DNA of 64,000 bases from Escherichia phage JLBYU40, in the sequence record NC_105514.1; one strand, written 5' to 3'. Under the pieces are notes generated by a model. It was given only the letters and a program-made list of their open reading frames with translations, made no database searches and was not told the DNA's origin. Below are positions 2,290 through 16,215 of this stretch, piece by piece. Numbering within the stretch: position 1 is the first letter of the stretch; the number at the start of each line of letters is the position of its first letter. A program made the translations under genes and the position numbers.

Positions 2290-3431
2290 AAGAAATCTCC
2301 AAATTCATTACCTAGATCTTTCAGAGTATCAGCAGAGGTCTCAGTTACCTGACCTACACGGTAAGCTGCACCAATCTGGATTTCTTGCGGAGCAGGCTGT
2401 AGAGAAGTAGTATCCAACCAGTTCATGATCCATGGAATAGGGTTTTTGGTGATTACTGGTAAGTGACTAGGCCATTCTACACCGATGTGCATAAATGCAT
2501 TACGTCCCACAAAGTACAGATATTCTTCTAGAAGTTCTGCATTCAAGCCAATCAGACTACGACCTTTGAAAATGAAATGACCCCATTCAATTTCAGTTTT
2601 CAGAGTTTTCAGGAGCTGTGCTGGTGCTTTAGCCACTGCTTCATCTACCAGATCTTTGTCAAACTGCTGAAACATAATCTGGATGATTGCTTTGGACATC
2701 TGAGTGTGCAGAGCTTCATCTTTAGCGATTAATTGCAGATTTTTAGCAATACCTTGCAGAATATCGTTCTCTGCTAATGCAAAGGTACATGCAAAGGATG
2801 CGTAAAACTGCATTGCTTCCAGACCATAGATAGCAAAGTAAGCGTCTAATAGTTTAGCCTGAGTTTCACGTTTAACTTCAGGGAACTCCGTTTCTGGATA
2901 TGTATTGTCGCCACGATGATCGCGTACTGCGATGAAATACTGACCTAACTGGTACAGTTCATCGAATAGTTCAACAGAATCAGCGATGCGTGCGAATGCT
3001 TCTTGGTTTTTGGTTACAGAATCAATAAATTCTGCTGGGTCAGTCAGCACATTACGAATAATATTGCTATAAGCACGACTATGCAGGTCTTCAAAATAGC
3101 TCCACTGTTTGAGCATACCTTCCAATTCTGGACGACTTACAAGTGGCATAATAGCTGCTTCAGGGGCACGACTGATAAAGGAATCAGTTTGAGTCTGCCA
3201 TGCTAGGTTCAGGAGTGTAATTTCCTGAATTTCCCGTGGGAGGTTAGGCCATTGTTTCTTATCTGCTTCCAGACTGATTTCAGTTTCAGTCCAAAATTGA
3301 GAGCGTTGCAGAAGTGCCAGACGTTCTAGTTCTGGATGTGCTACACGTACATAATCTGCGATACCGAGAGAATCTCCCAGGAAAAGGTCAGCATTAGTAT
3401 GATCCCAATTCAGGTTTAGTAAAGTAGTCAT
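2286..3431 (-). CDS. nrdB: Ribonucleotide reductase class Ia beta subunit
   Basis: 381 aa, directly downstream of the alpha subunit gene; own promoter at 3463-3491. Confidence 0.85.
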   Translation of the reverse strand: MTTLLNLNWDHTNADLFLGDSLGIADYVRVAHPELERLALLQRSQFWTETEISLEADKKQWPNLPREIQEITLLNLAWQTQTDSFISRAPEAAIMPLVSRPELEGMLKQWSYFEDLHSRAYSNIIRNVLTDPAEFIDSVTKNQEAFARIADSVELFDELYQLGQYFIAVRDHRGDNTYPETEFPEVKRETQAKLLDAYFAIYGLEAMQFYASFACTFALAENDILQGIAKNLQLIAKDEALHTQMSKAIIQIMFQQFDKDLVDEAVAKAPAQLLKTLKTEIEWGHFIFKGRSLIGLNAELLEEYLYFVGRNAFMHIGVEWPSHLPVITKNPIPWIMNWLDTTSLQPAPQEIQIGAAYRVGQVTETSADTLKDLGNEFGDFL

Positions 3432-3462
3432 TGATTTTCCTCTTTCTCACTATTTCAGGAAT

Positions 3463-3491
3463 ATTATAGCAAATCTGGTAGCGATTAGCAA
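3463..3491 (-). promoter_or_regulatory. Sigma70-type promoter TTGCTA-N17-TATAAT for nrdB (minus strand)
   Basis: Minus-strand reading TTGCTAatcgctaccagatttgcTATAAT. Confidence 0.6.
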
Positions 3492-3502
3492 GTAAAATTT
3501 CA

Positions 3503-3529
3503 AAGAAAAAGGAGACCCGAAGATCTCCT
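3503..3529 (-). terminator. Intrinsic terminator after nrdA
   Basis: Hairpin AGGAGA-cccgaaga-TCTCCT (3510-3529) followed on the minus strand by a U-run (plus A-run 3503-3509). Confidence 0.6.
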
Positions 3530-6995: not shown

Positions 6996-7059
6996 TCCTA
7001 TAGTGTACTTCGCTAACAGAGGATCAACAAAAAGATCTTGTTTATCAACTTACAAATAT

Positions 7060-7088
7060 ATTATACCAATATATACAGTAAAAAGCAA
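7060..7088 (-). promoter_or_regulatory. Sigma70-type promoter TTGCTT-N17-TATAAT for phoH (minus strand)
   Basis: Plus-strand ATTATA (7060-7065) and AAGCAA (7083-7088) separated by 17 nt. Confidence 0.55.
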
Positions 7089-7280
7089 CTACAATTTTAA
7101 ATAAGCCTATGATATTGCATTTAAATAAAAAATTTGCTTGCTTTTAACGTGAGATGTGTGATACTAGATAATCATTTTATATCGCGTGCACGAGTGCGTG
7201 ATTATACAATTTTTAATAGAGATTGGCAAATAAAATTTTTTGACTCAGATCATGTTATAGAACTTTATAGTAAAATATTG

Positions 7281-7309
7281 TTGACATCCGCCCTCGAATG
7301 AGTTATAAT
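7281..7309 (+). promoter_or_regulatory. Consensus sigma70 promoter TTGACA-N17-TATAAT for nrdD
   Basis: Perfect -35 (7281-7286) and -10 (7304-7309); GAAGGAGGG RBS before ATG 7339. Confidence 0.7.
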
Positions 7310-7338
7310 AGTAGTCTTAGTTAGAGAAGGAGGGTGTA

Positions 7339-9213
7339 ATGAATCGTAATGAAGAACTAAAATATAAAGAAATGCAGGCGTTAATTAGAAACTGCAAAGA
7401 GATTATCGAAGGGTCAGCAGATGAAGAGCTGCTGTTTAATAATGCTAATAAACCCTCAGAACGTTTCCCTACACAAAGGGATATGCTTGCAGGTGAATTG
7501 AGTAAGTATCTAATTCTAGAAGAAATGCCAATTCAGATTCGAAATGCTCATATGATTGGGGATATTCATTTCCATGATGCTGATTATGCTGCATTAGGCA
7601 TGACTAACTGTTGCCTGGTAGCTCTGGAAGATATGTTGAAGAATGGTATGAAGGTTGGTAATGCTGAAATTAGCACTCCAAACTCTATCACTACTGCGGC
7701 GGCTATTACTGCTCAGATTATCACTCAGGTTAGCTCCCATCAGTATGGTGGTACTTCTGTAGATCGCCTTGATGAAGTATTAGCCCCTTATGTTCGTAAA
7801 TCCTATGACAAAAATCATGCGTTTGCAAAACGCTGGACTAAGGATGAGGCCAAAGCATCCGTAATGGCTACGGAGATGACTGAAAAAGAAGTCTATGATG
7901 CTTGTCAGGGTCTAGAGTATGAGATCAATACGATGTTCAACTCTAATGGTCAGAGTCCATTTATTACCTTTGGTTTTGGTCTAGGAACTTCTTGGGAAGC
8001 TCGTCTAGTACAGAAAGCAATACTGAAAGTACGTATGGATGGTTTAGGTATCAATAAACGTACAGCTATCTTCCCGAAACTGGTATTTGTACTTCGTGAT
8101 GGAGTAAATATGAAACCAGGAGATGTTAATTATGACATCAAGAAGTTAGCTATGAAATGTACTGCTGAACGTATGTATCCAGATTATATCAGCTATGACA
8201 AAGTTGTAGAAGTTACTGGAGACTACAAAGTTTCTATGGGCTGCCGTTCATTCCTAGCTGCTACAGAAGATGGTGAAACTGCAGGTCGTAATAACTTAGG
8301 TGTTGTTTCTGTAAACTTGCCTAGAATTGCTATCGAAGCTGAAGGAAATATTGACCTATTCTTTGATTTGCTTGAGCTACGTGTAGATACAGCATTAAAA
8401 GCGTTGGAGTGGAGAGTTGATCGCTTAAAATACATTCAAGCTAAAGCTGCACCCATCCTCTATATGTCAGGAGCCTTTGGGTTACGCTTAGGGCCTGATG
8501 AATATGTATTTGATCATTTCTATAACCGTGCTTCTGTATCTCTAGGGTATATTGGTTGCCATGAAATGCTACAGTTCATGTTTGGCAAAGATGTAGACAC
8601 AATGTCCGAGACCTGCATTAAGTTTGTTCAGCGTGTATTGCAGTACATGCGAGATAGAGTCGATCAGAAGAAGGAAGAAACTAAGTTAGGTTATAGCCTG
8701 TATGCTACACCATCAGAATCCCTATGTGATCGTTTTTGTCGTCTAGACCGTGAATATTTCCCGGAGCATGAAGATATTCTGTCTAAAGGATACTACACTA
8801 ACTCGCACCACCTTGATGTAGAACGCAAAGTTGCTCCCAATGTGAAATTTGATTATGAATCTAATTTTACTCCGATTGCTTCTGGTGGGTGCATTTCCTA
8901 TGTAGAACTACCAGATATGAAACGATTCCCAGATGCACTGGAATGGGTTATTAATTATGCTGCTAGTAAAGTTCATTACTTCGGTATTAATACTCCAGTG
9001 GATTCTTGTGGTAAATGTGGATTCTTAGGTGAAACAATAGCATCCGAAGATGGATTTAAGTGCCCTATCTGTGGTAATCATGACCCCGAAACTCTTGAAG
9101 TAACTCGTCGAGTTTGTGGGTATCTTGGAAATCCAGGTGCTCGTCCATTTAACCCGGGCAAACAGCACGAGGTTATGGGCAGAGTGAAACATCAGGATAT
9201 TCGAGCTAAATAA
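7339..9213 (+). CDS. nrdD: Anaerobic ribonucleotide reductase (class III)
   Basis: C-terminal glycyl-radical motif RVCGYLG, Cys cluster CGKCGF...CPICG, 624 aa. Confidence 0.9.
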   Translation: MNRNEELKYKEMQALIRNCKEIIEGSADEELLFNNANKPSERFPTQRDMLAGELSKYLILEEMPIQIRNAHMIGDIHFHDADYAALGMTNCCLVALEDMLKNGMKVGNAEISTPNSITTAAAITAQIITQVSSHQYGGTSVDRLDEVLAPYVRKSYDKNHAFAKRWTKDEAKASVMATEMTEKEVYDACQGLEYEINTMFNSNGQSPFITFGFGLGTSWEARLVQKAILKVRMDGLGINKRTAIFPKLVFVLRDGVNMKPGDVNYDIKKLAMKCTAERMYPDYISYDKVVEVTGDYKVSMGCRSFLAATEDGETAGRNNLGVVSVNLPRIAIEAEGNIDLFFDLLELRVDTALKALEWRVDRLKYIQAKAAPILYMSGAFGLRLGPDEYVFDHFYNRASVSLGYIGCHEMLQFMFGKDVDTMSETCIKFVQRVLQYMRDRVDQKKEETKLGYSLYATPSESLCDRFCRLDREYFPEHEDILSKGYYTNSHHLDVERKVAPNVKFDYESNFTPIASGGCISYVELPDMKRFPDALEWVINYAASKVHYFGINTPVDSCGKCGFLGETIASEDGFKCPICGNHDPETLEVTRRVCGYLGNPGARPFNPGKQHEVMGRVKHQDIRAK

Positions 9214-9807: not shown

Positions 9808-9970
9808 TCCAGAAAACATGCTTATTGAGCAATGGAACTTTGGTTATAATGCTGGTGTAGCTACTTGTATTGCTAGATTGGATACGCTTATTAAGCAAGA
9901 AAAGGTACGCCCTGAGGAAGCAATTTTACTCCAAAATATTATCGAAGGATTTAAGCAAGGAATCGTATAG
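9776..9970 (+). CDS. Hypothetical protein (about 64 aa)
   Basis: Start placed at ATG 9776 after a GGAGGAG RBS, within ORF-track 9692-9970. Confidence 0.35.
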   Translation: MDFLNQNLKSNPENMLIEQWNFGYNAGVATCIARLDTLIKQEKVRPEEAILLQNIIEGFKQGIV

Positions 9971-10806
9971 TGCGTAGATTAGTTATTATTAGCGGTGCAG
10001 GTTTGAGTGTTGAAAGTGGTGTACGAGCTTTTCGTACTGATACTGCTAGTGGTAAAGCATTGTGGGATGATTATGATCTAGAAGAAGTATGTAATATTCA
10101 TGCCTTTCGTGGTAATTTTTATCATAAAACCCATATGTTTTACAACAAACGTCGTGAAGAGCTAAAAACTGTTGAACCCAATCTTGCACATTTGCGTATT
10201 GGTGAATGGTATAAACAATATCCAGGTCAAGTAGTAAACTTGACTACCAACGTTGATGACCTTATTGAGCGTGCTGGCGTTCCACATAGTGACATTCTGC
10301 ACATTCACGGATATTTAAAAGAGGTTGTTGTAGCTGATAGCTACAATAGTAGCAATAAACGGATTATTGATGTAGGGTATAATTCTATTGATCCAGATGA
10401 TTATAAATGGGTTAAACCTAATGTAATCTTCTTTGGAGAACATGCTCCTGCATACGCAGAAATGTATAATGTTTTTGATGGTATTACCAGTCAAGATATG
10501 ATCATTGTGGTTGGTTGCTCTAATCAAGTAATTAACTTCTACTGGGAATTATTTCCTGTTCTTAATTTGACTGCTGCCAAACTAATGGTAGTTAACTACT
10601 ATGATAGTGCCATAGCAGCAGAGCCAGGCTATCAAGGTATGACTCGTAGTGAGATGTACCAACTGGAAGATCGTGGTATTCCTTACTGGAGTAAAGGTGC
10701 AGTAGATGCTTTTAGTGACCCTGATTTTATTGCTCGTGTGGAAGCCCATTTAGAGGGTAGACCTTATGTGCCGGAGAGAAGGGGAAACAGATATGTCCAT
10801 AGTTAA
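9970..10806 (+). CDS. Sir2-like (sirtuin-fold) NAD-binding protein lacking a zinc ribbon
   Basis: GAGLSVESGVRAFR, TTNVDDLIERAG, catalytic HG in LHIHGY, PNVIFFGE; no CxxC...CxxC pair. GTG start. Confidence 0.6.
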   Translation: MRRLVIISGAGLSVESGVRAFRTDTASGKALWDDYDLEEVCNIHAFRGNFYHKTHMFYNKRREELKTVEPNLAHLRIGEWYKQYPGQVVNLTTNVDDLIERAGVPHSDILHIHGYLKEVVVADSYNSSNKRIIDVGYNSIDPDDYKWVKPNVIFFGEHAPAYAEMYNVFDGITSQDMIIVVGCSNQVINFYWELFPVLNLTAAKLMVVNYYDSAIAAEPGYQGMTRSEMYQLEDRGIPYWSKGAVDAFSDPDFIARVEAHLEGRPYVPERRGNRYVHS

Positions 10807-10975
10807 ATCTGTTTATACACATCCCGATGATATATTTGTATGGGCGGACGGTAGTTGGTGCTATCGCTGTGAGCTGTGGGAAATGGACTATAAATCCGAT
10901 GACTATGGTGTCATATATGTTGATACGGCTGAGTATGATACGTTCTTAGAAAGGAACAAAAATGGAAATAAGTAA
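10793..10975 (+). CDS. Hypothetical small protein
   Basis: Start at ATG 10793 (MSIVKSV), overlapping the Sir2-like gene end. Confidence 0.3.
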   Translation: MSIVKSVYTHPDDIFVWADGSWCYRCELWEMDYKSDDYGVIYVDTAEYDTFLERNKNGNK

Positions 10976-11468
10976 TACTCCAATTATTTTTCTAGATATT
11001 GATGGGGTGCTCAATTCGAGCATCTCCCACCATCATGCGCCTGATCATGAAAAGATTTTCTTTGGAAGTGACTGGGTTTTCAAACCGCTTCTCAAGGCTT
11101 TTCAGGACTTTATTCGTCCTTCTCCGATAATGATTGTTGGAGTATCCTCATGGTTCCCTGTCAGGAATGAGATGGAGAACGTTCAGATTATGACCGGATT
11201 AGGTCTTATCGATCGTTTTCTTGGTACAACGGATTTTACTGGTGGTGGGCTATCTAGGGGTAATTCTGTTCTTCGCTTCGTTGAAAAGCATAAGCTCAAA
11301 CATTGGTGTGTGCTGGATGATGCTGGTGCTATGATGTACCAGTATCCAACGGTTATAGTCAACGGTAGAACTGGAATAAATCTTCAAGATTTAAGAGCTG
11401 TTAGCTATATGCTAGAATTTAGCCCAGATCTTGAAATGTGTAAATCCTTACAACAATTTAAGGTGTAA
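10962..11468 (+). CDS. HAD-superfamily phosphatase-like protein
   Basis: Motif I FLDIDGVLN and motif IV LDDAG; 168 aa. Confidence 0.55.
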   Translation: MEISNTPIIFLDIDGVLNSSISHHHAPDHEKIFFGSDWVFKPLLKAFQDFIRPSPIMIVGVSSWFPVRNEMENVQIMTGLGLIDRFLGTTDFTGGGLSRGNSVLRFVEKHKLKHWCVLDDAGAMMYQYPTVIVNGRTGINLQDLRAVSYMLEFSPDLEMCKSLQQFKV

Positions 11469-11470
11469 AT

Positions 11471-11899
11471 ATGTTCAATAATGTATTCTCTAAAGAAGCT
11501 AACCCAATTTTGGTTAACTTTTGGCGTACTCTCCCGGCTAGCCTGTATAATGAGGCTATTAACTCCTTGAAAATATGGTGTGAAAATAATGAAATCTCCT
11601 TTGCTTTTAAAGATGATATTGATGAGGCCCCCTGTATTGGTTTAGTTGTGCAGGTAGAGGATGGTCTTGAAGAGATTGTGGGCTGGAAAGAGTTAGACGA
11701 AATGGGCTTAGTTTTTGCGTTAAATTATAAGCTGTTTATGCCTGCTAAGCATCGCCTCGTTGTTAACCATAAAACTAGTGAATCTCCTGGTTTTCAGGTT
11801 AATGAACGTTATGGTTGGTCTTACTCACCGGAAGAAGTAAATGAGGGGATTCAGAAACTTCGCCGTTTTGGTTATCAGATTCCGGGTTTAACTGCTTAA
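11471..11899 (+). CDS. Hypothetical protein, paralogue A
   Basis: Shares the PCIG...W.ELDxMGLxxALNxxLFxP core with the next ORF. Confidence 0.45.
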   Translation: MFNNVFSKEANPILVNFWRTLPASLYNEAINSLKIWCENNEISFAFKDDIDEAPCIGLVVQVEDGLEEIVGWKELDEMGLVFALNYKLFMPAKHRLVVNHKTSESPGFQVNERYGWSYSPEEVNEGIQKLRRFGYQIPGLTA

Positions 11900-11908
11900 G
11901 GAGGCAGA

Positions 11909-12301
11909 ATGGAACAAGTATATTGGCGTCAGATTGATCCTAGTTTGGTGAAGCGTGCGGAGAAGCTGCTACAACGTTGGTTGGGGGTAAGACAAGCCTC
12001 CTTCACTTTTCCGGAGCAGCAAATAGACGATCCCTGTATTGGTGTTTTCCTATCAGGCTACGCTAGGGAATGGGAATTGGATTGGAATGAATTGTCTGCT
12101 ATGGGCTTGATTGTTGCCCTAAACTTCTCTTTGTTCCATCCACGTGGTTTGGCCATATGTCGTGTGCCTGATGACGGTTGTTCGCCCCATCTTTTACAGG
12201 TGGAAGATGATATTTGGGAGTACACTCCAGATATTCTCACAGAAGCTAAAGAACAATTAAATCGTGTTGGGATTTATGTTCCGGGCTTAAATGATGAATG
12301 A
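11909..12301 (+). CDS. Hypothetical protein, paralogue B
   Basis: Tandem paralogue of 11471-11899. Confidence 0.45.
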   Translation: MEQVYWRQIDPSLVKRAEKLLQRWLGVRQASFTFPEQQIDDPCIGVFLSGYAREWELDWNELSAMGLIVALNFSLFHPRGLAICRVPDDGCSPHLLQVEDDIWEYTPDILTEAKEQLNRVGIYVPGLNDE

Positions 12302-12369
12302 TTTTTATTAGCTGAAATTTGTAATCCGGGCTATTAGTGCTCGGATTATTACATAATCTTTCCAGTCGA

Positions 12370-12423
12370 TTGACAGTCAAAATAAATTGTCGTTGACAAT
12401 TTGGATGGATTATGTAATAATAT
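12370..12423 (+). promoter_or_regulatory. Promoter with two palindromic TTGACA-containing operator-like sites upstream of the HNH gene
   Basis: Palindromes TTGACaGTCAA (12370-12380) and ATTGTCgttGACAAT (12386-12400), followed by an AT-rich -10 candidate and GGAGGTGAGG RBS. Confidence 0.45.
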
Positions 12424-12440
12424 ATGTATTGGAGGTGAGG

Positions 12441-12893
12441 ATGTCATTCACACAGCAAGAACTTTTAGATAACTTCCGATATGAAGATGGTAAGTTATTT
12501 AGAACTACAGGAAGAAATGCAGGGAAAGAATGTTGTGTTTCTACGGGTAACGGATATTATCGTATATCTCTAGGGAATAGGACTATGCTTCGGCATAGAG
12601 CAATATTTTTAATGCATCATGGATACTTACCTGATTTAGTAGATCATGTGAATACTATAAAAGGTGATGATCGTATTGAAAATCTTAGAGAGCAGACAGT
12701 GTCCGGTAATCTAAGAAATATCAAATATAAGAAAGGAATGCATGTTTACCCTTCTGGTAGTAAGAACTGGCAAGTAGTATTTACTATTAACCGTAAACGT
12801 ATAGTTAAAGGAACATATGACAACTATGAGGTTGCATGTTCTATGGCCAAGATGTTTAGAGGTCAATTATACGGTAGGGAATCAATCCAGTAA
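12441..12893 (+). CDS. HNH homing/nicking endonuclease with AP2-like DNA-binding domain
   Basis: HNH core HRAIFLMHHGYLP...VDHVNTIKGDDRIENLREQTVSGNLRN; start at ATG 12441 after the RBS. Confidence 0.75.
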   Translation: MSFTQQELLDNFRYEDGKLFRTTGRNAGKECCVSTGNGYYRISLGNRTMLRHRAIFLMHHGYLPDLVDHVNTIKGDDRIENLREQTVSGNLRNIKYKKGMHVYPSGSKNWQVVFTINRKRIVKGTYDNYEVACSMAKMFRGQLYGRESIQ

Positions 12894-13220: not shown

Positions 13221-13428
13221 AAGCATTAGGTGAGCAAATCTGGCTTAGCGGCCATCCTCAAGGATTTGTGCGGTATAACAAAGCAGCAGCGCAGCGTGAA
13301 AGTGGAAGTTGCCACCCCACTTCAGTATTTGCGATTAATTTGTTGAGAAATTGACAGTAACAGTTGTTCTATTCTTTCTGAATAGTCCTAAAGAAAACTT
13401 ATTTCATTTCCAACACAGGAGTATTGTT

Positions 13429-16215
13429 GTGTTTTCAATCCTACAAGGTCATGCAGGATTTCATCGCGATTTAGCCACAGGCAATTGGCGAGAAGTTAAA
13501 GCAGAAGACTATCTTTTTGCTAAAAGATTTTCCTCAAAGCATCCTGAAGGTAAACCAGCTTCAATGCCCTTCAAGTTTGATGTAATTGATGAAGTTGATC
13601 CTCAAACCCTAGTAGAAATGCTTCCTCTTATGAGACGTTTAACGTCTGACCCTCATATCGTTGCGGTACGAGGTCGATGTCTTGCACCTAAAAATAATGT
13701 GCGACGTAAGAAGGGCAACTTTAATGTATCTAACCCAAGTCATATAATTGCAATGGACGTGGATGGTATTGTAGATACAGGTGGTTGTAACAAGTTTGAT
13801 CTTGTTGGCATGGCCCGACATATTATTAGGATGTTAAATAGTATTAGTGAGGATATGTTTCCTCTTGATGCAGGGTTTATCGCTCATGCATCATCTTCGG
13901 CTGGGCTAAAACCAGGTATCCGAATGCACTTAATACTAGAATCTAATGTTAAAGTAACTCAGGGTCAAATCAAGTTCTTATTTACATCTATCAATGAAAG
14001 TAGTAGACAAAAGTATGGCTTTGATATTGCCGACTTAGCTTATTACTCTTCCGTACAGCTCCATTATTTTGCAGATCCGTTATTTACAGATGGTATAGTA
14101 GATCCGTTTAAAGCGGAGGGTGCTTCACGTCTGGTATTTGTTAAGGGTTCTAAAGTAAATTTACCCAATAATCTGGTTGACTATGAAACAACTAGAGGCG
14201 AGTTTAAAGAGGAGTTTTACTCTTTACTCGATCAAATTAAAGGTAAAAAAGCCGCCTCCGATAAAGTAGAGGAAACTATCAGCGAACTAGAAGAAGCTGA
14301 GGATGGAGTGTATCTACGTATTATTCCTAAACTCTATCACAGGGCTTTAGAGGATGGTGTTGATTTTGCATGGCTAGAAAAAGAAATCCGTCCAGCCTTA
14401 TCAGAGTATATTGCAACTAAAGATAATAGTCGTAATATTCAAGACTACTTTAACAACGGTCGTAAGCAGGCTCTGAAAGCGTTTGTTAATAATTCTAAAC
14501 GTGATATACCGGATGTTTTAAAAGGTATTCCACTTAAAAAGCTAGAAACTAACTCTCTAGAGACTGATAACTTCTTGAAATTAAATACTGTACCACCAGA
14601 AGGTTATATGACTTTTGTAAAAGCAAGTCTAGGTACAGGTAAAACTACGGCGGTTGTGCGTTGGCTGGATTCAGGAGTTATTAAGGGTAATTTCTTAGCA
14701 ATTACCAATACTAGGGCACTAGTGTCTTCAAATGCTAAGAAATTTAGTGCAGGACAATATGATAAGTCTGTAGATATGCTTAATTTTAAGCGCGGTGCTA
14801 TTGACCGTATGTCCACAACTATTCACTCTTTACATAAGTTCAAGAGTTTTATTGGTCAAATTGATGCAATCTTTATCGATGAATGTGATGCTGTAATGAA
14901 TGACCTATTATTCGCCCCGGTTGTTAAGCAACGTCGCGAGTGTATTCAGGTTCTTCGGGATATTCTTGCAACTGCAAAAATCATTATATTATCTGATGGT
15001 GATATTAGTGCTGAAACAATTGAAGCATATGGTTCTTTGATTGAGTTTGATAAACCGGTTGCATTTTATAATCATCACCGTAAGATGCTGTCAAAAGCTC
15101 ATGCTTATGAGTTCCCTGATGAATCTAGTATTTGGGTTGCACTTCAGACTTCTCTAGAGATGGGTGAGAAATCTATTCTGGTATCTGACTGTGGGCCGGA
15201 TGAGCTGAATGAGAAGGGCATGGCATTGCGTCATAATACGGGTGCATTAGTTAAGGAAATCCACTCAAACTCTACGTCTGATGTAGATATTAGACGTATC
15301 CTGGATTACACAACTAATGAGTTAATTGACCAACAAATTGATTGCTTATTATGTAGTCCATCCGTAACGAGTGGTGTTGACTTCAACTATTTTGATAACG
15401 TATTCGTTATTACTAGAACCAGTAATCAGGCGCCAAACATGCGTTTCCAAGCAATCAGGCGCGACCGTGGTGCTCAGAACATCTATTATTTTATTGATAA
15501 ATCCACTAGTGGATTCTCCGCAGGTTCCGAACAATATAATATTGATGAAGGTTGGCTGGAGTTAGCACAGCAATTATACGCACGTCGCAGAGAGCTAGAA
15601 TCTAGGAACTATACTAGTACTTTACGTTATTACTTGCTTGATCAGGGTGCAACTATTGATATTTTCAGCGAAAGCTGGGGAACTATTGAAGGTGCTGGTA
15701 AAGAGTACACAGAAGAGCGAATTAAAGCTATTCTACATTCAACTCCGGATTATTGTGCTCCACGTCATGCGGATGCGTATGAAGCTAAACTACTTCTTGT
15801 TCGCTATTATCATCTCGAGTCTATTAAAGATGTAACAGTTGAGCATGTTGAACAATATATCAAAGATAAACCAAATGATCGAGCTGCATTCTTCCATAAG
15901 ATGCATGAGATGTTCTGGGAAGATATTAAGAAGTGTTCAAATGTGACCATTAAACCATTCATAGAAGCTCTGAAAGGTAAGAAGAAGGATTTCTTCCTTA
16001 AAACAGGTCAGAGTGCTAACCCAAAATATGCTAGAATGTATCTTGGTATGATGGGTATTGGTAAGGATATGAACACTGAAAATATTGTAGACTGGTACAG
16101 AACCTATTGTAAAATCGAGTGTATGCCAATTCCTTTCAAATTCATGACAGAGGAAGAGAAGGCTATGGCAGAAGAAGTAATGTCCGAACTTGGAGCAACC
16201 AATGAAGATGCATAA
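13429..16215 (+). CDS. Primase-polymerase (AEP)-helicase fusion; putative replication initiator/origin-binding protein
   Basis: N-terminal AEP motifs IIAMDVDGIVD and IRMHLILES; Walker A SLGTGKTT and Walker B IFIDECDAV. Start placed at GTG 13429 after CAGGAG RBS (ORF-track start 13351 sits in a promoter-like TTGACA). Confidence 0.65.
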   Translation: MFSILQGHAGFHRDLATGNWREVKAEDYLFAKRFSSKHPEGKPASMPFKFDVIDEVDPQTLVEMLPLMRRLTSDPHIVAVRGRCLAPKNNVRRKKGNFNVSNPSHIIAMDVDGIVDTGGCNKFDLVGMARHIIRMLNSISEDMFPLDAGFIAHASSSAGLKPGIRMHLILESNVKVTQGQIKFLFTSINESSRQKYGFDIADLAYYSSVQLHYFADPLFTDGIVDPFKAEGASRLVFVKGSKVNLPNNLVDYETTRGEFKEEFYSLLDQIKGKKAASDKVEETISELEEAEDGVYLRIIPKLYHRALEDGVDFAWLEKEIRPALSEYIATKDNSRNIQDYFNNGRKQALKAFVNNSKRDIPDVLKGIPLKKLETNSLETDNFLKLNTVPPEGYMTFVKASLGTGKTTAVVRWLDSGVIKGNFLAITNTRALVSSNAKKFSAGQYDKSVDMLNFKRGAIDRMSTTIHSLHKFKSFIGQIDAIFIDECDAVMNDLLFAPVVKQRRECIQVLRDILATAKIIILSDGDISAETIEAYGSLIEFDKPVAFYNHHRKMLSKAHAYEFPDESSIWVALQTSLEMGEKSILVSDCGPDELNEKGMALRHNTGALVKEIHSNSTSDVDIRRILDYTTNELIDQQIDCLLCSPSVTSGVDFNYFDNVFVITRTSNQAPNMRFQAIRRDRGAQNIYYFIDKSTSGFSAGSEQYNIDEGWLELAQQLYARRRELESRNYTSTLRYYLLDQGATIDIFSESWGTIEGAGKEYTEERIKAILHSTPDYCAPRHADAYEAKLLLVRYYHLESIKDVTVEHVEQYIKDKPNDRAAFFHKMHEMFWEDIKKCSNVTIKPFIEALKGKKKDFFLKTGQSANPKYARMYLGMMGIGKDMNTENIVDWYRTYCKIECMPIPFKFMTEEEKAMAEEVMSELGATNEDA

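What the first reader, a model, noticed from the sequence alone, without database searches (positions are those of the whole stretch)
11471..12301. Tandem paralogous genes with a conserved PCIG...W.ELD.MGL..ALN..LF.P core
Two adjacent ORFs of 142 and 130 aa share a clearly alignable core but divergent termini, indicating a local duplication followed by divergence. This pattern is common for rapidly evolving host-interaction or anti-defence factors.
Basis: seen in the sequence. Interest (0 to 1): 0.4.

Follow-up and report, generated by a model that had tools for sequence, protein, structure and literature searches.

The report
Ancient tandem DUF7415 gene pair, T5-like phage
The two neighbouring genes are true, old duplicates. 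They are the counterparts of phage T5 early genes T5.106 and T5.107, belong to a catalogued phage protein family of unknown function (DUF7415), and evolve slowly, so the duplication is real but the "rapidly evolving anti-defence factor" reading is not supported.

Summary
ORF-A (11471-11899, 142 aa) and ORF-B (11909-12301, 130 aa) are paralogues: 32% identity over 124 aa, E 6e-20, z = 27 against shuffles. The similarity covers almost the whole length, not only a core.

The window is a T5-like phage, and the genes are orthologues of T5.106 and T5.107 (92% and 95% aa identity). Both fall in Pfam DUF7415 and PHROG 2502, function unknown.

The duplication is old. The pair is present in about 520 Demerecviridae genomes, including Klebsiella phage Sugarland, and both copies are under purifying selection (dN/dS 0.06-0.25). 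Three more distant T5-like contigs carry one copy at the same place.

The C-terminal half is a roughly 55-aa module found in many phages, either alone or fused to a MazG-like pyrophosphatase, thymidylate kinase, ASCH/DUF3850 or DUF5405. ORF-B keeps the canonical motif of this module; ORF-A has lost it. A published CRISPRi-ART screen scored T5.107 "Fit" and T5.106 "Not Fit".

Both AlphaFold models are confident (pLDDT 87 and 92), and no solved structure resembles the one searched (ORF-A).

My best guess, unproven, is that the two co-expressed small acidic proteins form a non-catalytic binding module serving early DNA-precursor supply or replication, with ORF-B carrying the functional site. Interest is modest.

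The parts
11471..11899 (+). ORF-A, 142 aa, 16.3 kDa, pI 4.8. Orthologue of T5.106 and the degenerate paralogue.
   Evidence: ORF list. 92% aa identity to T5.106 in the same position. Pfam DUF7415 at 117 bits and phrog_2502 at E 6e-62. AF2 model pLDDT 87.3, pTM 0.81. pI.
11672..11848 (+). C-terminal DUF7415 unit of ORF-A (about residues 68-126), degenerate: the canonical H-P-x-G-L-A..R reads M-P-A-K-H-R..N.
   Evidence: A profile built from single-unit homologues scores only 29-30 bits here. The motif comparison uses the alignments.
11900..11904 (+). GGAGG ribosome-binding site of ORF-B, immediately after ORF-A's TAA stop. The 9-nt intergenic gap suggests coupled expression.
   Evidence: Read directly from the sequence. 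In Sugarland and metagenomic locus L098 the two genes overlap by 4 nt.
11909..12301 (+). ORF-B, 130 aa, 15.0 kDa, pI 4.5. Orthologue of T5.107 and the canonical paralogue.
   Evidence: ORF list. 95% aa identity to T5.107. Pfam DUF7415 at 109 bits and phrog_2502 at E 3e-61. AF2 model pLDDT 92.2, pTM 0.86, with the same order of secondary-structure elements as A. T5.107 is 'Fit' in the CRISPRi-ART screen.
12074..12253 (+). Canonical DUF7415 unit of ORF-B (about residues 56-115): DWNELSAMGLIVALNFSLFHPRGLAICRVPDDGCSPHLLQVEDDIWEY.
   Evidence: The single-unit profile scores 63-64 bits, E 5e-19. hhalign of the C-halves against the single-unit alignment gives probability 99.7%, E 2e-26. All four residues invariant in the single-unit family (N, P, G, S) and the near-invariant H are kept.
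12321..12349 (+). Terminator-like hairpin closing the operon (11-bp stem, -15.9 kcal/mol). The T-tract is weak in this phage.
   Evidence: Fold z = -3.4, with 0 of 200 shuffles folding as well. The hairpin is conserved in position, with changed stem bases, in T5 and DaisyDussoix, and is annotated as a terminator in T5. The consensus terminator scan did not call it.
10962..11468 (+). Upstream gene of the same operon: HAD_SAK_2 phosphatase-like protein (T5.105 orthologue). Its stop codon lies 2 nt before ORF-A's ATG.
   Evidence: Pfam PF18143, E 1.5e-19. T5 synteny.
9970..10806 (+). Sir2-like gene (T5.102 orthologue). It lies upstream of the DUF7415 gene or genes in every T5-like lineage examined where the upstream sequence is available.
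   Evidence: Pfam SIR2, E 8e-25. Synteny in T5, DaisyDussoix, phiR2-01, Sugarland, L098, L100 and L101.

Best explanation
**What it is (shown).** ORF-A and ORF-B are the T5.106 and T5.107 orthologues of a Tequintavirus. They are an ancient tandem duplicate of a small two-part gene that closes the early nrdD-Sir2-HAD operon, just upstream of the origin-binding helicase gene (D2).

The C-terminal half of each protein is the DUF7415 unit: a helix followed by a beta-hairpin, with consensus DWNE.S..GL...IN.EILHPLGLA..R...TG.S...LV..DG.WEY. This is a mobile phage module that also occurs alone or as the C-terminal appendage of several enzymes.

ORF-B, the second gene, keeps the canonical unit. ORF-A, the first gene, has a degenerate one. 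The same asymmetry is seen in every lineage examined that carries a pair. Lineages with a single copy keep the canonical unit.

**How it most likely works (inferred).** The two acidic, roughly 15-kDa alpha+beta proteins are co-transcribed and translationally coupled, and I think they assemble into a hetero-oligomer. In this model ORF-B contributes the conserved binding site and ORF-A is a structural or regulatory partner.

The complex would be non-catalytic: a binding or adaptor module that contacts a conserved partner, either a protein or possibly a nucleotide-type ligand, during early infection in the DNA-precursor and replication programme.

**Confidence, split.** Identity and evolutionary history about 0.95. 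ORF-B functional and ORF-A degenerate about 0.6. Heteromeric, non-catalytic binding module acting in precursor supply or replication about 0.3-0.35. The single confidence figure given (0.35) refers to the mechanism.
For: **Paralogy and orthology**
- A against B: E 6e-20, z = 27.
- Synteny with T5, and 92% / 95% aa identity to T5.106 / T5.107.

**Age and selection**
- 522 phage records carry 1033 matching places.
- The A clade including Sugarland gp141 has 97% bootstrap.
- dN/dS is 0.06-0.25.

**Canonical versus degenerate copy**
- Scores against the single-unit profile are 63 versus 29 bits in the window, 49 versus 6.5 in Sugarland, and 57 versus 14 in L098.
- The single-copy lineages L100, L101 and L102 score 54-77 bits.

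**Coupled expression**
- ORF-B's GGAGG follows ORF-A's stop directly, and the genes overlap by 4 nt in Sugarland and L098.
- A hairpin and then a strong promoter follow ORF-B.

**Link to nucleotide metabolism and replication**
- Fusions of the unit to thymidylate kinase and to PF04447 dATP/dGTP pyrophosphohydrolase.
- Fusions to DUF3850/ASCH and DUF5405, plus a 185-aa type whose N-terminal part looks MazG-like by eye but which Pfam did not recognise. All of these are in P2-like prophages, next to the replication initiator gene A.
- The single-unit gene sits between nrdD and nrdG, overlapping both, in Jiaodavirus.
- In T5-like phages the gene always lies in the nrdD operon and directly upstream of the Herpes_ori_bp-type gene.

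**Against nucleic-acid binding.** pI is 4.5-4.8, and the single-unit cores have a median pI of 4.7.

**Against an enzyme.** The proteins are small, have no hit to any catalytic family, and the polar positions are not kept in ORF-A.

**Fitness.** T5.107 is one of 17 'Fit' genes of T5 (score -2.90, p 0.0215). T5.106 is 'Not Fit' (p 0.167). Source: PMC11879866 supplement.
Against: - No direct evidence exists for an A-B complex.
- Single-copy lineages show that a partner paralogue is not obligatory.
- Neighbourhoods of single-unit homologues are heterogeneous: Thg1/NADAR/HD, Cpn60/RNase H, NUDIX, DNA ligase, and many hypothetical genes. The nucleotide/replication link is a tendency inside early-gene regions, not a tested enrichment.
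- The T5.107 fitness effect is marginal and comes from an insensitive screen, in which the origin-binding gene T5.108 was also 'Not Fit'.
- The invariant polar residues N, H and S would also fit a ligand pocket or an active site.
- Free-standing 72-100-aa single-unit proteins dominate the family. That argues the unit has an activity of its own rather than being a mere tether.
Confidence: 0.35

Rival explanations
1. Host-takeover or anti-defence inhibitors, a weakened form of the first reader's idea. Each small acidic protein would bind and neutralise a conserved host protein, such as a defence effector or a DNA-binding protein. The duplication would let the phage cover two targets.
For: - The proteins are small and acidic (pI 4.5-4.8), as many phage inhibitors are.
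- The fold has no solved relative.
- Free-standing single-unit homologues are common in accessory early regions and in P2-like prophages, in the early operon that in P2 itself ends beside the old/tin exclusion genes.
- The genes lie next to a phage Sir2-like gene.
- Copy number is one or two among distant T5-like phages.
Against: - Purifying selection is strong and matches that of the housekeeping neighbours.
- Position and copy number are fixed across about 520 genomes.
- The motif is extremely conserved across phages of Enterobacteria, Vibrio, Aeromonas, Pseudomonas and Burkholderia. Arms-race proteins are usually not like this.
- T5.107 knock-down already costs fitness under the published screen's standard conditions.
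- Fusion to dNTP-handling enzymes is hard to explain for a pure inhibitor.
Confidence: 0.22
2. A small-molecule (nucleotide or NAD-related) sensor, or a minimal enzyme. The DUF7415 unit would dimerise into an ACT-like two-layer alpha/beta sandwich whose invariant N, H, S and R residues form a ligand pocket. It would regulate fused or associated nucleotide enzymes, and ORF-A/ORF-B would be a pseudo-tetrameric version with one intact site.
For: - Polar residues are invariant or nearly so in a domain of only ~50 aa (N19, S39 invariant; H24, S10, Y52 nearly so).
- The unit recurs as a C-terminal fusion to PF04447 (MazG-type) pyrophosphatase, thymidylate kinase and ASCH-like domains.
- Neighbours include NrdD/NrdG, NUDIX, NADAR and Sir2.
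Against: - The domain is net acidic, which does not favour binding anionic nucleotides.
- No P-loop, Rossmann or other nucleotide-binding signature was found, and there are no Pfam or NCBIfam hits beyond the DUF.
- ORF-A has lost the putative pocket residues yet is under the strongest constraint (dN/dS 0.06-0.09).
Confidence: 0.18
3. The two paralogues act independently. After duplication ORF-A acquired a different role, or is merely tolerated, and only ORF-B performs the ancestral DUF7415 function. There would be no complex.
For: - Single-copy lineages function with the canonical type only.
- ORF-A's unit is degenerate.
- T5.106 is 'Not Fit' while T5.107 is 'Fit'.
Against: - ORF-A is the more conserved of the two (dN/dS 0.06-0.09, against 0.12-0.25 for B) and is retained in about 520 genomes, so it is not decaying.
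- Adjacency and translational coupling are preserved from T5 to Sugarland.
Confidence: 0.2
4. Chance similarity, or non-coding ORFs.
For: None.
Against: - z = 27 against shuffles.
- E 6e-20 between the two proteins.
- Family HMM scores above 100 bits.
- dN/dS well below 1.
- Confident AF2 models for both proteins.
Confidence: 0.01

Closest known systems
Escherichia phage T5 early genes T5.106 and T5.107 (AAS77152, AAS77153; 'conserved hypothetical proteins')
   Same: They have the same position (after the HAD-like T5.105, before a terminator and the origin-binding gene T5.108), the same lengths (142 and 130 aa), and 92% and 95% aa identity. These are orthologues.
   Different: This phage has an HNH endonuclease gene inserted between ORF-B and the D2 gene, which T5 lacks. 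It also has one rather than two phrog_5116 small genes upstream. Neither T5 gene has a known function.
Pfam DUF7415 (PF24187) / PHROG 2502 and 3954: single-unit phage proteins such as Klebsiella phage KP179 gp172 (between NrdD and NrdG) and Aeromonas phage phiO18P orf15
   Same: The C-terminal halves of ORF-B, and more weakly of ORF-A, are this unit: hhalign probability 99.7% and 63 / 29 bits. The predicted fold is shared: in BFVD only DUF7415 proteins match, with TM up to 0.84/0.91.
   Different: Most family members are 72-100 aa with one unit. The T5-type proteins carry an additional N-terminal half. Pfam's model also matches that half, but my profile comparisons do not relate it to the unit. 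The T5-type gene is also duplicated in tandem.
P2-like prophage early-operon proteins of the Orf83 (DUF5405) and Orf91 (DUF3850/ASCH-like) type, and PF04447 dATP/dGTP pyrophosphohydrolase proteins carrying a C-terminal DUF7415 unit
   Same: They carry the same C-terminal module and also sit in an early operon beside the replication initiator gene.
   Different: In those proteins the unit is appended to a different N-terminal domain. P2's own Orf83 and Orf91 are annotated only as DUF5405 and DUF3850, which suggests they lack the unit; I did not scan them. There is no tandem pair.
ACT-type / ferredoxin-like small regulatory domains (a functional analogy only)
   Same: Both are small alpha+beta two-layer sandwiches that are often C-terminal to metabolic enzymes and would be expected to act through oligomerisation.

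Membership tests
Pfam DUF7415 (PF24187) | Whole-protein score above the curated gathering threshold (27 bits) | tested here: met
   ORF-A scores 117.1 bits and ORF-B 109.2 bits. The halves scanned separately score 68.8, 52.2, 59.1 and 54.0 bits.
Pfam DUF7415 (PF24187) | Canonical unit motif (W-N-E-x-S..G-L...I/L-N....L-H-P-x-G-L-A..R....G-x-S.....W-x-Y) | tested here: met
   Met fully by ORF-B residues 56-105. ORF-A meets it only partly, with H to M, G to K and the R lost. Scores against the single-unit profile are 63 and 29 bits.
Pfam DUF7415 (PF24187) | Two tandem DUF7415 repeats per protein, that is, the N-half homologous to the C-half | tested here: inconclusive
   Pfam's model matches both halves, and both halves are predicted as helix plus hairpin. 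However, hhalign of N against C, or of N against single-unit proteins, gives probability of 1.3% or less, and a profile Smith-Waterman test gives z = 1.9. The Pfam result may reflect a mixed seed alignment.
PHROG 2502 | Full-length match to the family HMM | tested here: met
   E 6.4e-62 and 3.2e-61, covering 132-134 of 134 profile positions. The PHROG category is 'unknown function'.
T5.106 / T5.107 orthologue pair | Reciprocal similarity plus conserved synteny (Sir2 - small gene - HAD - A - B - terminator - origin-binding gene) | tested here: met
   and the tree (100% bootstrap for the window + T5 pairs).
Rapidly evolving anti-defence / host-interaction paralogue arrays | Elevated dN/dS or diversifying selection relative to neighbours | tested here: not met
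   dN/dS is 0.06-0.09 for A and 0.12-0.25 for B, against 0.05-0.24 for the neighbours.
Rapidly evolving anti-defence / host-interaction paralogue arrays | Copy-number or presence/absence variation among close relatives | tested here: not met
   There are two places in nearly all of 522 records. One-copy states occur only in distant T5-like metagenomic lineages.
Rapidly evolving anti-defence / host-interaction paralogue arrays | Similarity to a characterised anti-defence protein, or a defence-dependent phenotype | tested here: not met
   No significant PDB fold or sequence match. In BFVD only DUF7415 proteins match. A defence-dependent phenotype cannot be tested with these tools.
Glycyl-radical 'spare part' proteins (GrcA/YfiD-like), considered because of the nrdD linkage | Conserved R-V-x-G-[YF] glycyl-radical motif | tested here: not met
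   By eye, the G-x-S-x-G-like turn has no conserved radical glycine. ORF-B reads C-S-P-H-L and ORF-A reads E-S-P-G-F.
T5 early 15-17 kDa RNA-polymerase-associated protein | Co-purifies with host RNAP from infected cells | not testable with these tools
   In the literature the ~17-kDa band was identified by mass spectrometry as gpT5.026, not T5.106 or T5.107 (PMC7472727). I dropped the idea.

The most novel reading that the evidence does not exclude
DUF7415 is a previously unrecognised fold that acts as a portable targeting or sensor module of phage DNA-precursor and replication machinery. It would, for example, tether MazG-type, Tmk-type and other enzymes, or dock by itself, onto a conserved hub such as anaerobic ribonucleotide reductase or the replisome. 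The T5 pair would then be a hetero-oligomer evolved from a homo-oligomer, keeping one active unit. This would explain why T5.107 is one of the few T5 genes of unknown function with a knock-down fitness cost.
Probability: 0.2. Interest if true: 0.6.

Novelty: already known. Interest (0 to 1): 0.3.

Why it matters
In itself it matters little. The pair is already catalogued as T5.106 / T5.107, Pfam DUF7415 and PHROG 2502, and tandem paralogues are ordinary in large phages.

The family is still a reasonable target for experiment, for four reasons:
- It has no solved or recognisable fold.
- Its ~55-aa unit is exceptionally conserved across P2-like, T4-like, T5-like and jumbo phages of Proteobacteria.
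- The unit recurs fused to nucleotide-handling enzymes.
- One of the two T5 genes is among only 17 genes scored as important for T5 fitness.

The asymmetry between a canonical and a degenerate copy gives a concrete hypothesis that can be tested: ORF-B is the functional subunit and ORF-A is its partner.

Tried and rejected
1. **Internal repeat.** Pfam matched both halves of each protein. I could not confirm homology between the N-half and the C-half (hhalign; offset scan and profile Smith-Waterman), so I keep it as tentative only.
3. **Sequence search of the PDB.** Both proteins and both family profiles found nothing.
4. **NCBIfam and PADLOC.** No hits.
5. **RNAP-binding 15-kDa T5 early protein.** Rejected, because that band is gpT5.026.
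6. **Glycyl-radical spare part for NrdD.** The motif is absent.
7. **Very large hits in the profile search.** Proteins of 700-2700 aa with 5-13 matching stretches are Ig / cadherin / RTX repeat proteins that match only a beta-hairpin segment. I treat them as spurious.
8. **GenBank names.** Labels such as 'exonuclease', 'tail tube protein' and 'tail protein' on orthologues have no support from any search here.
9. **A-stop-B read-through fusion.** I tried to model this as a proxy for the complex. The tool refuses sequences containing a stop codon.
10. **Literature.** Searches for DUF7415, PF24187, phrog_2502 and T5.106 / T5.107 in main texts found nothing. Only the CRISPRi-ART supplement mentions the genes.
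11. **Neighbourhoods of metagenomic single-unit homologues.** They showed no consistent partner gene.
Full report
**1. The observation**

The window carries two adjacent, same-frame ORFs on the + strand: ORF-A at 11471-11899 (142 aa) and ORF-B at 11909-12301 (130 aa). BLASTP of one against the other gives 66.6 bits, E 6e-20, with 40 of 124 residues identical and a single gap. A Smith-Waterman score of 160 compares with 27.9 +/- 4.9 (maximum 56) for 2000 shuffles, z = 27. The paralogy is real.

First, the similarity is not limited to a core. In an alignment of 11 A-type and 12 B-type orthologues, the invariant positions span the whole length: W18, R19, L33, W36, W72, E74, N85, F89, P91, W116, Y118, L130, G134, G139 and L140 in ORF-A numbering. 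Only A's first ~12 residues, which are disordered in the model, and one loop differ. Second, 'PCIG' varies among orthologues.

**2. Identity and context**

The region is 93-97% identical to many Tequintavirus genomes; the best match is vB_EcoS_MM-1 at 96.8%. In phage T5 the same genes are T5.106 and T5.107, annotated as 'conserved hypothetical proteins'. They lie after Sir2-like T5.102, the small genes T5.103/104 and HAD-like T5.105. A predicted terminator, a promoter and the origin-binding gene T5.108 follow them.

The window has the same arrangement:
- Sir2 at 9970-10806.
- A phrog_5116 small gene at 10766-10975.
- A HAD_SAK_2 gene at 10962-11468.
- ORF-A and ORF-B.
- A stable hairpin at 12321-12349 (-15.9 kcal/mol, z = -3.4), conserved in position with changed stem bases in T5 and DaisyDussoix.
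- A near-consensus promoter at 12393-12421.
- An HNH endonuclease gene at 12441-12893, absent from T5.
- The D2-type gene.

ORF-A starts 2 nt after the HAD stop codon. ORF-B's GGAGG follows ORF-A's TAA directly. In Sugarland and in metagenomic locus L098 the two genes overlap by 4 nt. The pair therefore closes an early operon and is built for coupled expression.

**3. Family**

Both proteins match Pfam DUF7415 (117 and 109 bits against a cut-off of 27) and PHROG 2502, whose function is unknown. NCBIfam, PADLOC and PDB sequence searches return nothing.

An exhaustive profile search of 1.84 billion representative proteins found only 155 hits at E <= 1e-3. Most are 60-170-aa proteins that match only profile positions ~56-110, the C-terminal half.

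Forty such proteins align into a strikingly conserved unit with consensus IDWNE.S.LGLI.RIN.EILHPLGLA..R.PETG.S.G.LV..DG.WEY. Residues N, P, G and S are invariant. A search of the 5.8-billion-protein collection with that alignment gave 416 proteins. The 120 best listed are almost all 72-100 aa, and the few with a source name are called 'hypothetical' or 'DUF7415', mostly from Vibrio and Aeromonas genomes and metagenomes.

hhalign relates the C-halves of ORF-A and ORF-B to this unit with probability 99.7%, E 2e-26.

**4. Is each protein a double repeat?**

Pfam's 53-position model matches the N-half and the C-half of each protein separately, at 52-69 bits. Both halves are predicted as a helix followed by a beta-hairpin.

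My own tests do not detect N-C similarity:
- hhalign of the N-half against the C-half, or against the single-unit alignment, gives probability of 1.3% or less.
- The expected residue offset is not the best-scoring one, and a profile Smith-Waterman test gives z = 1.9.

A mixed Pfam seed alignment would produce the Pfam result without any true homology. I therefore treat the nested-duplication idea as possible but unproven.

**5. One canonical copy and one degenerate copy**

The table gives scores against the single-unit profile.

| Lineage | First gene (A-type) | Second gene (B-type) | Only gene |
|---|---|---|---|
| Window | 29 bits | 63 bits | |
| Klebsiella phage Sugarland | 6.5 | 49 | |
| Metagenomic locus L098 | 14 | 57 | |
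| L100, L101, L102 (single copy) | | | 54-77 |

ORF-A has lost the conserved H (now M), the G (now K) and the R.

L100, L101 and L102 are more distant T5-like lineages. L101 comes from a 113.5-kb contig that also carries RNR, PhoH, Sir2 and a Herpes_ori_bp-type gene. Each has only one two-part gene in the same slot, and a six-frame HMM scan found no second copy.

An NJ tree places Sugarland gp141 with the T5-type A proteins (97% bootstrap). It places the single-copy proteins P0054 and P0064, with P0059 and P0066, beside the T5-type B proteins (100%).

The simplest history is an ancestral single canonical gene, a tandem duplication before Markadamsvirinae and Sugarlandvirus split, and degeneration of the conserved site in the upstream copy.

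**6. Tempo of evolution**

tblastn with ORF-A finds 522 phage records with 1033 places, so two copies per genome are the rule across the family.

Nei-Gojobori dN/dS values:

| Gene | dN/dS |
|---|---|
| ORF-A | 0.06-0.09 |
| ORF-B | 0.12-0.25 |
| Sir2 | 0.10-0.24 |
| HAD | 0.05-0.08 |

Synonymous sites between A and B are saturated (dS about 1.8). Nothing here suggests an arms-race protein.

**7. Structure**

AF2 models are confident: ORF-A has pLDDT 87.3 and pTM 0.81, and ORF-B has pLDDT 92.2 and pTM 0.86. Both show the same element order, E-H-E-E-E-H-H-E-E-H.

The fold searches, all run with the ORF-A model, gave no informative relative:
- Foldseek against the PDB: best E 0.24.
- BFVD: only DUF7415 proteins, including a B-type orthologue at TM 0.84/0.91.

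The fold therefore has no solved relative. Both proteins are acidic, with pI 4.8 and 4.5 and net charge -7 and -10. The single-unit cores are acidic too, with median pI 4.7. This argues against direct nucleic-acid binding.

**8. Clues to function**

*Domain fusions.* The unit occurs as a C-terminal appendage to:
- Thymidylate kinase (P0090).
- PF04447 dATP/dGTP pyrophosphohydrolase (P0155, P0159).
- DUF3850/ASCH.
- DUF5405, in 157-aa proteins seen in 14 of 80 IMG/VR loci.
- A 185-aa type, seen in 9 loci, whose N-terminal part looks MazG-like by eye although Pfam did not recognise it.

DUF5405 and DUF3850 are the annotated domains of P2 Orf83 and Orf91, the genes flanking the replication initiator gene A. 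A gpA-like protein of ~774 aa (assigned by size and position, not scanned) lies within three genes of the module in 45 of the 80 loci, and directly next to it in 35 of them.

*Neighbourhoods.*
- In Jiaodavirus the single-unit gene sits between nrdD and nrdG and overlaps both.
- In Slopekvirus and Pseudotevenvirus it lies two genes after a NUDIX hydrolase.
- In phiO18P it follows the rep gene.
- In T5-like phages it is in the nrdD operon, immediately upstream of the origin-binding gene.
- Other contexts are uninformative early-region hypothetical genes.

*Experiment.* The CRISPRi-ART transcriptome-wide screen of T5 lists T5.107 among 17 'Fit' genes (score -2.90, p 0.0215), describing it as 'of entirely unknown function'. 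T5.106 is 'Not Fit' (p 0.167). The screen is insensitive, because T5.108 is also 'Not Fit' (PMC11879866 supplement). This matches the canonical/degenerate asymmetry.

**9. Interpretation**

I regard as shown that the pair is an ancient, conserved tandem duplicate in a catalogued family of unknown function, with a canonical second copy and a degenerate first copy.

The most likely mechanism, at about 0.3-0.35, is an inference. The two co-expressed acidic proteins would form a hetero-oligomer that acts as a non-catalytic binding or adaptor module in the early DNA-precursor and replication programme, with ORF-B carrying the functional site.

The rivals are:
- Host-takeover or anti-defence inhibitors (about 0.2).
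- A small-molecule sensor or minimal enzyme (about 0.18).
- Independent functions with no complex (about 0.2).

The RNAP-associated 15-17 kDa early protein is gpT5.026, not these genes. A glycyl-radical spare-part role is excluded by the motif.

**10. Verdict**

The 'rapidly evolving anti-defence' reading is not supported. The genes are already known as T5.106/T5.107, DUF7415 and PHROG 2502. Interest is modest (0.3): this is an orphan-fold, highly conserved, fusion-prone phage module with one published fitness signal, which makes it a reasonable experimental target, but it is not a surprising finding.

Noticed in passing
window 12387-12893 (HNH ORF; probable start at 12441), with a promoter-like site at 12393-12421: An HNH_3 homing-endonuclease gene with its own near-consensus promoter (TTGACA-17-AATAAT, with an extended TG) sits between ORF-B and the origin-binding gene. 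T5 and DaisyDussoix have only non-coding sequence there. This is a presence/absence polymorphism typical of homing endonucleases.
   Followed up: partly
window 10766-10975; L002 (T5) 3147-3505: The small phrog_5116 gene upstream of the HAD gene is single in this window and in MM-1. It is duplicated in tandem in T5, where T5.103 and T5.104 both belong to phrog_5116 and share a G[ST]WCYR motif. DaisyDussoix and phiR2-01 also carry two small ORFs in this slot, but the second DaisyDussoix ORF does not resemble the first. This neighbouring gene, unlike the DUF7415 pair, varies in copy number among close relatives.
   Followed up: partly
L001 (vB_EcoS_MM-1) 7010-7401: The closest relative has a 1-nt deletion (CCGGAG to CC-GAG) in its ORF-B orthologue. 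The gene is therefore annotated as two 66-aa CDS. This is either a sequencing error or a real frameshift; I could not tell which.
   Followed up: partly
window 10962-11468: The HAD_SAK_2 protein (a HAD phosphatase domain of 'Swiss Army Knife' RNA-repair proteins) is labelled 'Sir2 (NAD-dependent deacetylase)' through phrog_18062, and carries that label in the MM-1 record. This looks like a propagated misannotation from the true Sir2 gene two genes upstream.
   Followed up: partly
GenBank records of orthologues: Orthologues of ORF-A and ORF-B are variously named 'exonuclease', 'Phage exonuclease (ACLAME 70)', 'tail tube protein' or 'tail protein'. No search here supports any of these names.
   Followed up: yes
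L006 (Klebsiella phage KP179) 3501-3719: In Jiaodavirus a 72-aa single-unit DUF7415 gene is wedged between the anaerobic ribonucleotide reductase genes nrdD and nrdG and overlaps both. This echoes the nrdD-headed operon of T5-like phages and may point to a link with anaerobic RNR.
   Followed up: partly
window 13351-16215: The mechanical ORF for the D2 origin-binding protein starts at a TTG and gives 954 aa, against 929 aa in T5 (T5.108). The true start is probably about 25 codons downstream.
   Followed up: no
profile search (P0053, P0095, P0126, P0160, P0172, P0180): Giant bacterial Ig-like / cadherin / RTX repeat proteins match profile positions ~90-125 repeatedly, with 5-13 stretches each. 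This is probably beta-hairpin mimicry rather than homology.
   Followed up: partly
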